Shown here piece by piece: positions 54,755-56,538 of a stretch of 64,000 bases of DNA. Position numbers and translations under genes: made by a program. Position 1 is the stretch's first letter; each line of letters opens with the position of its first letter. The notes under the pieces were generated by a model, which was not told the origin of the DNA, did not search any database, and saw only the letters and a program-made list of their open reading frames with translations. This stretch comes from Alphaproteobacteria bacterium (GTDB taxonomy: Bacteria; Pseudomonadota; Alphaproteobacteria; UBA7879): contig PKTP01000010.1 of NCBI GenBank assembly GCA_002869105.1, forward strand, positions 55,789 to 119,788, read 5' to 3'.

Positions 54755-55309
54755 ATGAATTCTTCAAGGGACGAGCTATCCGATACAGGCAAAAAAAGAC
54801 GTGATTTTATCACGCTCACAGCAACAGCCATGGGCGGTGTCTTAGCTGGCTCCATTGCCTGGCCTCTTCTTCAAAGCATGAACCCTGCAGCAGATACGCT
54901 GGCTGAATCCGTTACCGAGGTTAATCTTGCGCCCATCTTATCCGGTGCGGCTCTCACCGTTATTTGGCAAGGTAAACCTGTTTTCATTCGCCATCGAACC
55001 GACCGGGAAATCGCCGAAGCAGTGGATGCCCCCTTGTCCACATTACCAGATCCTCAAGAAGACAAAGCACGGGTTCAAAAACCCCAGTGGCTGGTGGTCA
55101 TGGGAATTTGTACCCACCTGGGATGCGTTCCTCTTGGTCAAAAAAAAACAGAGACACGGGGAGAATATGGCGGCTGGTTCTGCCCCTGTCATGGCTCGCA
55201 CTATGATACATCAGGCCGAATCAGAAAAGGGCCAGCCCCAACCAATCTTGTTGTACCGCCCTATAACTTTATCAGCGATCAACTCATTCGAATTGGAAGG
55301 GAAGAGTAA
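54755..55309 (+). CDS. petA: Ubiquinol-cytochrome c reductase Rieske iron-sulfur subunit
   Basis: Rieske boxes CTHLGCVP and CPCHGSHYD. A Tat-like N-terminus (KRRDFITLTATAMGG). Confidence 0.9.
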   Translation: MNSSRDELSDTGKKRRDFITLTATAMGGVLAGSIAWPLLQSMNPAADTLAESVTEVNLAPILSGAALTVIWQGKPVFIRHRTDREIAEAVDAPLSTLPDPQEDKARVQKPQWLVVMGICTHLGCVPLGQKKTETRGEYGGWFCPCHGSHYDTSGRIRKGPAPTNLVVPPYNFISDQLIRIGREE

Positions 55310-56538
55310 TGTCTGACGGTGGGTCCAACCCTTATCGCCATCCGTTTGTCCGCTGGCTTGAAAAGCGTTTGCCGATCATCAGCTTTGTAGAGCACGCCCT
55401 CAAAGGCTACCAGGTCCCTAAAAACCTCTCGATCCTCTGAACAAGTGGGTTTATCGCCGGCTTCATGCTGGTGGTGATGATCCTCACTGGGATCTTGCTC
55501 GCCATGCATTATGTCCCCCATCCCGATCATGCCTTTGATAGCGTTGAGCGCATCATGAGAGAGGTTAATTTCGGCTGGCTCATTCGCTATCTTCATGCCA
55601 ACGGTGCGTCGCTGTTTTTCTTGGTTGTGTATATGCACATGTTCCGGGCGCTCTATTACGGCTCCTACAAATCACCGCGAGAAGTGTTATGGATCATCGG
55701 CATGATTATTTTCCTGGTCATGATGGCCACCGCTTTCTTAGGCTATGTGTTGCCCTGGGGGCAGATGAGTTATTGGGGCGCCACAGTCATCACCAATCTT
55801 TTTACAGCGATCCCCTGGATTGGGGATAGCATTCTTGAATGGCTGCTTGGTGCACCTTACGTAGGGGCGCCTGCTTTGAACAAATTCTTTGCGCTCCATT
55901 ATTTGCTTCCCTTCCTCATGTTTTTACTGGTCTTTATTCACATATGGGCCCTGCACACCCATGGATCCAATAATCCCACCGGTATTGAACCTAAAACCGC
56001 CGAAGACACCCTTCCCTTCCATCCCTATTACACTGTTAAGGATCTCCTTTCTATCGCCGGATTTATGGTGATTTTTGCTTTTTTCATTTTCTTTGCGCCC
56101 AACTTTTTTGGGGAGCCCGAAAATTACATCCCCGCTGATCCAATGGTCACCCCCGACCACATTGTGCCTGAGTGGTACTTTCTTCCGTTTTATGCGATTT
56201 TGCGCGCCATTCCCGATAAATTAGGGGGCGTTGTTGCCATGATTTCATCGATTTTGGTGTTGTTTGTGTTGCCCTGGCTTGATGGCTCCAAAGTTAAAAG
56301 CTGCACGTTCCGACCGATTTTTCGGGCCCTGTTCTGGGTTTTTGTTCTCGATGTTCTCATTCTAGGCTGGGTAGGTGCTAAACCAGCTGAAGGGCATTAT
56401 ATTGGAATCGGGCAATGGGCCACCGCTTATTACTTCATTCACTTTTTAATTTTGGTGCCCCTCGTAAGCCGTTTTGAAAAGCCCAGTGGCTTGCCCGACT
56501 CTCTCTCTGCCTACTATCGAGACAAGGGCTGTTCATGA
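55309..56538 (+). CDS. petB: Cytochrome b of the bc1 complex; full-length frame carries a single in-frame TGA at 55438..55440
   Basis: TAATG overlap with petA. The frame from 55309 encodes [70 protein letters not shown]..., collinear with cytochrome b N-termini (...PKNLNYWWNFGSLAG...). The ORF-track ORF 55465..56538 is the downstream 357 aa in the same frame, with heme-ligand His residues intact. Confidence 0.85.

What the first reader, a model, noticed from the sequence alone, without database searches (positions are those of the whole stretch)
55309..56538. Cytochrome b (petB) carries one in-frame UGA exactly where a conserved Trp is expected
From the ATG overlapping the petA stop, the frame reads ...[36 protein letters not shown]... 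and continues through all of cytochrome b. Aligned with alphaproteobacterial and mitochondrial cytochrome b (...PKNLNYWWNFGSLAG..., ...NLNWWWIWG...), the TGA falls on a Trp of the WW motif, and one TGG-to-TGA transition would produce it. The 357 aa downstream are conserved and intact, with heme His ligands and the Qo/Qi regions, so this does not look like an eroded pseudogene. One in-frame TGA in an essential respiratory gene suggests UGA read-through or Trp decoding (suppressor or tRNA-Trp near-cognate reading), a very recent nonsense mutation, or a base-calling error. A second in-frame TGA occurs in the OMP gene at 33531.
Basis: partly seen in the sequence, partly recalled or inferred. Interest (0 to 1): 0.75.

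Follow-up and report, generated by a model that had tools for sequence, protein, structure and literature searches.

The report
Recent nonsense mutation in cytochrome b
The in-frame TGA in the cytochrome b gene is real, but it is a young stop mutation in one strain group of an uncultured alphaproteobacterium that has also knocked out cytochrome oxidase subunit I and other genes, so it is gene decay and not a changed genetic code.

Summary
petB (55309-56538, +) has one in-frame TGA at 55438-55440, on a Trp that is invariant in 120 homologues. It is not a base-calling error: the same TGA is in a SRR28062646 contig and in a 99.7%-identical strain (ERZ24794615).

It is not recoding either. Sister lineages at 97-98% nucleotide identity carry TGG, so a single G-to-A change made it. 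TGA ends 16 of 62 genes in the window, petB included, against 224 TGG codons.

The same lineage carries other disruptions:
- TGG-to-TGA in a Pom-family porin (33531).
- GAA-to-TAA in an 824-aa gene (58197).
- A -1 frameshift in ubiE (7677).
- TGG-to-TAG in ctaD (cytochrome oxidase subunit I), 7.6 kb upstream of the window and shared with the ERZ24794615 strain.

NCBI protein accessions skip petB and ctaD, which suggests both are annotated as pseudogenes. About half of all possible nonsense mutations in petB fall on Trp codons, so the Trp position says little.

Best reading: a recent, naturally fixed nonsense allele, part of an early loss of the cytochrome c branch of respiration. Low-level read-through by tRNA-Trp cannot be excluded. 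RF2 and tRNA-Trp could not be examined.

The parts
55309..56538 (+). petB (cytochrome b), 409-codon conceptual reading frame interrupted at codon 44
   Evidence: Translation. PDB cytochrome b hits at E=1e-143. Pfam PF00033/PF00032 on the 357-aa part. Intact 409-aa orthologues at 98% identity.
55438..55440 (+). In-frame TGA, derived from TGG (Trp44) by one G-to-A transition at 55440
   Evidence: Sister loci L085, L086, L087, L088 and L093 have TGG. The window, L081, L082, L084 and L083 have TGA. W is invariant in 120 homologues.
55309..55440 (+). 43-codon N-terminal fragment of petB, called as a separate small ORF by gene finders
   Evidence: Gene calls in L081-L084.
55465..56538 (+). 357-codon ORF from the first ATG after the TGA. 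It has no Shine-Dalgarno-like sequence upstream and would lack the N-terminal 52 residues, including the start of helix A.
   Evidence: ORF list; sequence read directly.
54755..55309 (+). petA (Rieske iron-sulfur subunit), intact
   Evidence: PF10399 and PF00355. NCBI PLX29308.1.
56535..57311 (+). petC (cytochrome c1), intact; its start overlaps the petB stop (ATGA)
   Evidence: PF02167. NCBI PLX29309.1.
33303..34295 (-). Pom-family outer-membrane protein gene with in-frame TGA at 33531-33533 (codon 255, TGG in sisters)
57363..59837 (+). 824-codon hypothetical gene split by TAA at 58197-58199. The sister L087 and the 99.7% strain L083 have GAA there.
7071..7819 (-). ubiE (ubiquinone/menaquinone methyltransferase) with a -1 frameshift in an A run (7677-7681; A5 here, A6 in relatives). 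Adding one A restores a 249-aa product.
   Evidence: Intact in strain L099.
60489..61772 (-). CPA2 cation/H+ antiporter with a C-terminal frameshift (402 aa here, 427 aa in relatives)

Best explanation
The TGA is a genuine, recent TGG-to-TGA nonsense mutation at Trp44 of cytochrome b. It is fixed in one narrow clade of an uncultured alphaproteobacterium (NCBI MAG with locus tags C0582_) that uses the standard bacterial code.

Under that code, translation stops after 43 residues. Little or no full-length cytochrome b is made, and the bc1 complex is lost or strongly reduced.

The lesion is one of several in this clade. Cytochrome c oxidase subunit I (ctaD) has TGG-to-TAG at Trp424, and this is shared by the same two strains. 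The strain of the window has in addition a ubiE frameshift, a C-terminal frameshift in ctaB, a TGA in a porin gene and a TAA in a large hypothetical gene.

The most likely biology is an early, ongoing loss of the quinol to cytochrome c to oxygen branch of respiration. It has gone on too briefly for missense decay to show.

Shown: the mutation, its polarity, its presence in several samples, normal use of TGA as a stop, and the other lesions. Inferred: loss of function, and the idea that the respiratory lesions belong together.
For: - TGA confirmed.
- Same allele in identical contigs from JGI 3300007102, Logan SRR5894286 and ENA ERZ794996, in SRR28062646, and in a 99.7% strain from ERZ24794615.
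- TGG in five sister contigs from other samples, and W in further 409-aa relatives.
- Stop usage is TAA 29, TAG 17, TGA 16. The window has 224 TGG and only three in-frame stops.
- TGA stops coincide with Pfam profile ends in polA, dUTPase, NifU and IscA, and are conserved in the sister.
- ctaD has TAG at a Trp codon. The sister has TGG, with 37 synonymous and 0 non-synonymous other differences. The ERZ24794615 strain shares the TAG.
- ubiE frameshift. hyp824 TAA. Pom TGA.
- NCBI protein accessions run PLX29308 (Rieske) to PLX29309 (c1) and PLX29244 (COX2) to PLX29245 (ctaB). They skip petB and ctaD, and the locus-tag spacing leaves one unnumbered locus between Pom and orf278. From this I infer that both are annotated as pseudogenes.
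- 51% of possible nonsense mutations in petB and in ctaD fall on TGG codons.
- Three of five internal lesions lie in 8 quinol-to-oxygen genes (P about 0.006-0.013, category chosen post hoc).
Against: - There is no signature of relaxed selection in petB or ctaD. The petB clade branch has 4 non-synonymous and 11 synonymous changes, similar to sister branches. ctaD has 0 non-synonymous changes.
- After the lesions arose, only 4 synonymous changes, 3 non-synonymous changes and 1 frameshift are seen in the respiratory genes. That is too few to tell a dead gene from a leaky one.
- petA, petC, ctaC, ctaG, the ccm genes and the ATP synthase genes are intact.
- UGA followed by A is the context reported to favour read-through by tRNA-Trp in E. 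coli (Engelberg-Kulka 1981, as cited in PMC10540940 and PMC9122581). Read-through would insert exactly the right residue.
- The rest of the genome (RF2, tRNA-Trp, alternative oxidases, a second petB) could not be examined.
Confidence: 0.75

Rival explanations
1. Leaky hypomorph. The mutation is a nonsense mutation, but ordinary tRNA-Trp (CCA) reads UGA at a few percent. That restores wild-type cytochrome b at a low level, which is enough for this organism, so the gene stays under some selection.
For: The context is UGA-A, reported to favour read-through by tRNA-Trp in E. coli (cited in PMC10540940 and PMC9122581). Read-through would insert the ancestral Trp. petB shows no excess of missense change. 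The allele persists in at least two strains and several samples.
Against: The same strains carry UAG at a Trp codon in ctaD, which tRNA-Trp would not rescue. The absence of missense decay is equally explained by the lesion being young. No stimulatory structure or motif was found: the hairpin z-score is -2.5, the hairpin is not conserved, and there are no Rfam hits.
Confidence: 0.17
2. Genetic code change or dedicated suppressor. UGA is decoded as Trp (code 4), or the lineage is at an early stage of that reassignment, as proposed for Providencia siddallii strains.
For: Two in-frame TGA, both at ancestral Trp codons, in 62 genes. The Providencia strains PSOF and PSLP show a few such genes with intact prfB and tRNA-Trp (CCA) (PMC10540940).
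Against: TGA ends 16 of 62 genes at canonical protein ends, petB included. Only 2 TGA stand against 224 TGG. Sisters at 97-98% identity have TGG. TAG and TAA nonsense codons and frameshifts occur in the same lineage. The Trp position is expected from codon composition.
Confidence: 0.02
3. Sequencing or assembly error at 55440.
For: It is a single-base difference from relatives. The MAG has only about 17x coverage (contig name). Changes specific to this MAG look near-neutral: 2 synonymous, 5 missense, 1 nonsense, 1 frameshift.
Against: Three assemblers give identical sequence. The TGA is also in SRR28062646 and in a different strain from ERZ24794615.
Confidence: 0.01
4. Functional split gene. 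Ribosomes terminate at UGA and re-initiate at ATG 55465, 24 nt downstream. This would give a 43-aa peptide plus a 357-aa cytochrome b that still works.
For: An in-frame ATG lies 24 nt after the stop. Gene callers predict both ORFs.
Against: There is no Shine-Dalgarno-like sequence before 55465. Residues 44-52, including the invariant W and G47 and the start of helix A, would be in neither product. No relative has such a split.
Confidence: 0.03
5. RNA-level correction or selenocysteine. Either A-to-I editing turns UGA and UAG back into UGG-like codons (both lesions are G-to-A), or UGA encodes Sec through a SECIS element.
For: The lesions in petB, Pom and ctaD are all G-to-A at Trp codons, which an A-to-I edit would reverse in principle.
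Against: None of the three sites has the TACG loop motif of known bacterial TadA mRNA editing (my own knowledge of Bar-Yaacov et al. 2017, not checked here). No SECIS or other Rfam match was found. Sec at an invariant Trp is implausible. The bias towards TGG follows from codon composition.
Confidence: 0.01

Closest known systems
Young nonsense-mutation pseudogenes in bacteria under weak selection (for example Salmonella Typhi and Paratyphi A; 'pseudo-pseudogenes', PMC9122581)
   Same: A single C-to-T or G-to-A transition creates an in-frame stop in an otherwise intact, conserved gene. Close relatives keep the sense codon. Other genes in the same genome carry frameshifts and stops. Low-level translation past the stop is possible.
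   Different: Here the hits fall on core respiratory genes (cytochrome b, COX1, ubiE) of an uncultured alphaproteobacterium known only from metagenomes. No expression data exist.
UGA-to-Trp reassignment (code 4: Mycoplasma, Hodgkinia, Nasuia, Zinderia, Stammera) and the proposed early stage in Providencia siddallii (PMC10540940)
   Same: In-frame UGA at positions that are Trp in relatives, arising by TGG-to-TGA.
   Different: Reassigned genomes have UGA-Trp in 20-70% of genes, and prfB is lost or broken. Here 2 of 62 genes have it, TGA is a normal stop in 26% of genes, and non-TGA nonsense codons occur too. prfB and trnW could not be inspected.
Natural leakiness of UGA read by tRNA-Trp (Engelberg-Kulka 1981, PMC326727; Roth 1970), as cited in PMC9122581 and PMC10540940
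   Same: UGA followed by A, and the inserted residue would be Trp.
   Different: That work was done in E. coli and Salmonella. No measurement exists for this organism, and it cannot explain the UAG in ctaD.
Bacterial selenoprotein genes (UGA plus a downstream SECIS hairpin)
   Same: An in-frame UGA in a redox protein gene, with a predicted hairpin starting about 13 nt downstream.
   Different: The position is an invariant Trp, not Cys or Sec. Sisters have TGG with the same downstream sequence. There is no SECIS-family match.

Membership tests
Cytochrome b of the bc1 complex (PF00033/PF00032) | Full-length similarity to cytochrome b, including four heme-ligand His and the PEWY Qo motif | tested here: met
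   Paracoccus and Rhodobacter cytochrome b at E about 1e-143, covering residues 12-400. Pfam hits. The His pairs and VPEWYF are seen in the translation.
Cytochrome b of the bc1 complex (PF00033/PF00032) | Operon context petA-petB-petC | tested here: met
   Rieske, cytochrome b and c1 genes are adjacent with overlapping stop and start codons.
Genetic code 4 (UGA = Trp) organisms | A large share of genes carry in-frame UGA at Trp positions (20-70% in known cases, PMC10540940) | tested here: not met
   2 of 62 genes. 2 TGA against 224 TGG.
Genetic code 4 (UGA = Trp) organisms | UGA not used, or strongly depleted, as a terminator | tested here: not met
   16 of 62 genes end in TGA, at the ends of their Pfam profiles and at overlapping gene junctions.
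Genetic code 4 (UGA = Trp) organisms | prfB (RF2) lost or broken, and/or tRNA-Trp with UCA anticodon | not testable with these tools
   Neither gene lies in the window or in the 10-kb flanks. The rest of the MAG could not be fetched.
Nonsense-mutation pseudogene | Close relatives carry a sense codon at the site and an intact gene | tested here: met
   TGG in L085, L086, L087, L088 and L093. 409-aa proteins P0001, P0123, P0126, P0122 and P0125.
Nonsense-mutation pseudogene | The lesion is real in the organism, not an artefact | tested here: met
   Present in several assemblies and samples and in a second strain. Read-level support was not checked.
Nonsense-mutation pseudogene | Relaxed selection (dN/dS rising towards 1) after the lesion | tested here: inconclusive
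   Only 2 synonymous and 1 non-synonymous change in petB within the TGA clade. The stem branch has 4 non-synonymous and 11 synonymous.
Nonsense-mutation pseudogene | Absence of the full-length protein | not testable with these tools
   Needs proteomics.
Programmed stop-codon read-through / selenoprotein | The stop codon is conserved among relatives and there is a conserved stimulatory RNA element | tested here: not met
   Relatives have TGG. No Rfam match. The hairpin z-score is -2.5, and sister substitutions at 55458 and 55461 fall inside it.

The most novel reading that the evidence does not exclude
The clade still makes full-length cytochrome b and COX1 although it carries UGA and UAG at Trp codons. 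It would do so through an active correction mechanism: efficient suppression of stop codons at an early stage of stop-codon reassignment, or A-to-I mRNA editing that converts UGA and UAG back to UGG-like codons (all three Trp-codon lesions are G-to-A). This would explain why two core respiratory genes show no missense decay and why the alleles persist in two strains and several samples.
Probability: 0.03. Interest if true: 0.85.

Novelty: new member of a known kind. Interest (0 to 1): 0.27.

Why it matters
As a possible genetic-code variant it would have mattered, but the evidence says it is not one. What remains is a clean natural snapshot of the first steps of respiratory-chain loss in an uncultured, probably host-associated alphaproteobacterium. 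Single G-to-A hits at Trp codons knock out complex III and complex IV in the common ancestor of two strains. A ubiE frameshift follows in one of them, before any missense erosion is visible. It is also a practical caution: in Trp-rich membrane proteins about half of all possible nonsense mutations fall on Trp codons, so 'TGA exactly where Trp is expected' is not by itself evidence for recoding.

Tried and rejected
- **Genome collection scan.** It returned only relatives at 64% identity or less, so neither the source genome nor its RF2 and tRNA-Trp could be reached that way.
- **Sample identifiers in papers.** Searching for SRR5894286, SRR28062646, 3300007102, Ga0102541, 3300012270 and Ga0136604 found nothing, so the habitat is unknown.
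- **Enrichment of TGG-to-TGA.** Among nonsense mutations it looked significant with window-wide codon usage (P = 0.018; 3 of 4 at TGG, P = 0.015). The signal disappears once the Trp-rich composition of the hit genes is used: 51%, 51% and 23% of possible nonsense mutations are at TGG. Rejected as evidence for tolerated UGA.
- **Shared CAAGT motif.** The sequence follows both TGA codons (TGA-N-CAAGT). The pattern occurs 6 times against 4.6 expected. Treated as chance.
- **SECIS or read-through structure.** The hairpin after the petB TGA has z = -2.5 and the one after the Pom TGA has z = -0.8. No Rfam family matched.
- **L089 tail.** It has no Rfam hit, no ORF and no similarity to anything fetched. 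Left unexplained.
- **Look-up of the sister's intact COX1.** The truncated COX1 look-up answered the question instead.
- **tRNA scan of the flanks.** No tRNA-Trp was found.
- **Metagenome scan for both alleles.** It returned only one contig, carrying TGG.

Full report
**1. The observation**

petB starts at the ATG at 55309, which overlaps the petA TAA by one base. It runs in one frame to the TGA at 56536-56538, which overlaps the petC ATG. Codon 44 (55438-55440) is TGA.

The conceptual 409-aa product matches solved bacterial cytochromes b over residues 12-400 (E about 1e-143). It keeps both His pairs and PEWY. The TGA column is W in all 120 best database homologues.

It is codon 255 of a Pom-family (PF17251) outer-membrane protein on the minus strand (33531-33533). 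The domain match spans the stop, and close relatives have 328-aa proteins with W there.

**2. Source of the window and reality of the TGA**

Exact-protein look-ups place the window on a 224.7-kb contig of an NCBI MAG named 'Alphaproteobacteria bacterium', with locus tags C0582_. The Rieske protein is PLX29308.1 and cytochrome c1 is PLX29309.1.

- Identical DNA is found in JGI 3300007102, Logan SRR5894286 and ENA ERZ794996. I take these to be the same sample assembled three ways (an inference).
- The TGA is also in a 2.6-kb contig from SRR28062646.
- It is also in a contig from ERZ24794615 that differs from the window at 0.3% of sites, so it is a separate strain.

A consensus error is therefore excluded at the level of assemblies. 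Read pile-ups were not available.

**3. Polarity and age**

Five contigs from other samples are 97-98% identical in DNA and read TGG at the site: L085, L086, L087, L088 and L093. Further relatives have intact 409-aa proteins. One G-to-A transition at 55440 made the stop.

On the three-taxon tree, the branch leading to the TGA clade carries 11 synonymous changes, 4 non-synonymous changes (N218H, A283D, F308V, R326G) and the nonsense change. The two sister branches show 4:12-13 and 2:14 non-synonymous to synonymous changes. Four of 15 is far from the neutral 77% (P = 4e-5). The gene was therefore constrained for most of that branch, and the stop is recent.

Within the TGA clade there are only 2 synonymous changes and 1 non-synonymous change (T372P in the other strain). 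That is too few to say whether constraint continued.

**4. Test of the recoding idea**

- In 62 genes the stops are TAA 29, TAG 17 and TGA 16.
- There are 224 TGG codons, and only three in-frame stops in the whole window.
- TGA stops sit at the ends of the Pfam profiles of polA, dUTPase, NifU-N and the Fe-S biosynthesis protein. They also sit at overlapping gene junctions such as petB/petC.
- These stops are the same codons in the sister lineage.

This is a normal code-11 pattern. It implies a working RF2, which is an inference because prfB and trnW are not in reach.

**5. Other lesions in the same lineage**

Comparison with sister contigs over about 55 kb of the window and over the ctaC-ctaD-ctaB-ctaG genes upstream of it (L087, L090, L092, L101) shows several more lesions.

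| Gene | Lesion | Position | State in relatives |
|---|---|---|---|
| 824-codon hypothetical gene | TAA from GAA | 58197-58199 | GAA in the sister and in the 99.7% strain |
| ubiE | -1 frameshift (A5 for A6) | 7677-7681 | 249 aa in relatives; intact in the ERZ24794615 strain |
| CPA2 antiporter | C-terminal frameshift | 60564 | 427 aa, against 402 aa here |
| bolA | C-terminal 1-nt indel | 45471 | 96 aa, against 110 aa here |
| ctaD | TAG from TGG (Trp424) | 7.6 kb upstream of the window (L098 2861-2863) | TGG in the sister |
| ctaB | C-terminal frameshift | L098 3998 | 302 aa, against 294 aa here |

In ctaD the sister differs otherwise by 37 synonymous and 0 non-synonymous changes. The ctaD TAG is shared by the ERZ24794615 strain.

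The order of events is therefore as follows. petB-TGA and ctaD-TAG arose before the two strains split. The ubiE frameshift and the TAA arose afterwards, in the strain of the window.

NCBI protein accessions skip both petB and ctaD, and locus-tag spacing leaves one unnumbered locus between Pom and orf278. I read this as pseudogene annotation by PGAP.

**6. The Trp coincidence**

With window-wide codon usage, TGG-to-TGA looked over-represented among the nonsense mutations (P = 0.018). Cytochrome b and COX1 are Trp-rich and Gln-poor. Using their own codons, 51% of possible nonsense mutations fall on TGG, and 23% do in Pom. The position carries no information about decoding. A TAG at a Trp codon in ctaD also cannot be rescued by tRNA-Trp.

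**7. Mechanism**

The best-supported reading is a recent nonsense allele that abolishes or greatly lowers cytochrome b. It is part of an early loss of the quinol to cytochrome c to oxygen branch of respiration.

Three of the five internal lesions lie in eight genes of that branch (P about 0.006-0.013). I defined that gene category after seeing the data, so the figure is only indicative.

The changes specific to the window's strain look nearly neutral: 2 synonymous, 5 missense, 1 nonsense and 1 frameshift. That fits a small, clonal population in which selection is weak.

The Pom-family porin, a family named for amoeba symbionts, hints at a host-associated life. That is an inference only.

**8. 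What remains open**

Passive read-through of UGA-A by tRNA-Trp could leave a few percent of wild-type protein. This is known for E. coli and is cited in PMC9122581 and PMC10540940.

- No stimulatory element was found.
- Re-initiation at ATG 55465 would omit the invariant W44 and G47 and the start of helix A, and there is no Shine-Dalgarno-like sequence before it.
- Active correction, by a suppressor or by A-to-I editing, is the only exciting reading left. I put it at about 3%.

**9. Verdict**

The feature is real, but it is an ordinary kind of event: a young pseudogene-forming mutation. Its context is modestly interesting because it shows coordinated early decay of respiratory genes. It is not a recoded codon.

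Noticed in passing
L098 2861-2863 (7.6 kb upstream of the window start; same contig): ctaD (cytochrome c oxidase subunit I) has an in-frame TAG where the sister lineage has TGG (Trp424). There are otherwise 37 synonymous and 0 non-synonymous differences. 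The ERZ24794615 strain (L105) shares the TAG.
   Followed up: yes
window 7677-7681 (ubiE, 7071-7819, minus strand): A -1 frameshift in an A run (A5 here, A6 in relatives) splits ubiE. Relatives have 249 aa. The ERZ24794615 strain (L099) is intact, so the frameshift is younger than the petB TGA.
   Followed up: yes
window 58197-58199: A TAA (GAA in the sister and in the 99.7% strain) splits an 824-codon hypothetical gene (57363-59837) into 278-aa and 504-aa ORFs. The gene evolves fast (dN/dS about 0.49).
   Followed up: yes
window 60489-61772 (minus); 45426-45758 (minus); L098 3998: Single-base indels near the 3' ends change the C-termini of the CPA2 antiporter (402 vs 427 aa), BolA (110 vs 96 aa) and ctaB (294 vs 302 aa) relative to sister lineages.
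   Followed up: partly
L089 2066/2067, equivalent to window 55438/55439: A 2.46-kb scaffold from ERZ23498640 is 96.7% identical to the window up to the T of the TGA codon. It then continues for 397 bp of unrelated, non-coding, 40% GC sequence. This is either a chimeric join at a polymorphic site or an insertion at the very same codon. It is unexplained.
   Followed up: partly
window 55438-55446 (+) and 33525-33533 (-): Both in-frame TGA codons are followed by N-CAAGT (TGAACAAGT, TGACCAAGT). The pattern is not enriched in the window (6 found, 4.6 expected), so it is probably chance. The ancestral Pom site, TGGCCA, contains GGCC.
   Followed up: partly
window 49335-51743 (+): A single 802-aa ORF contains two tandem D-Ala-D-Ala ligase modules (the N and C domains each occur twice). 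It is conserved in the sister lineage.
   Followed up: no
window 33303-34295 (-): An outer-membrane protein of the Pom family (PF17251, named for Protochlamydia) occurs in an alphaproteobacterium. This may hint at an intracellular or protist-associated lifestyle.
   Followed up: no
window -1363..11711 and 53100-59098 (vs L099 and L083): Changes specific to the window's strain are near-neutral in kind (2 synonymous, 5 missense, 1 nonsense, 1 frameshift) and rich in transversions (three G-to-T). The other strain's branch shows 13 synonymous and 8 non-synonymous changes.
   Followed up: partly
window 4761-4977 and 9906-9919: A variable stretch lies inside the 570-aa hypothetical gene 3834-5546 (493 aa in the sister). 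A 14-bp insertion relative to the sister lies just past the 3' end of the polysaccharide-synthesis gene.
   Followed up: no
window 26102-30868 (+): A very large (1588 aa) NAD-specific glutamate dehydrogenase gene lies directly downstream of the tRNA-Met and tRNA-Gly genes.
   Followed up: no
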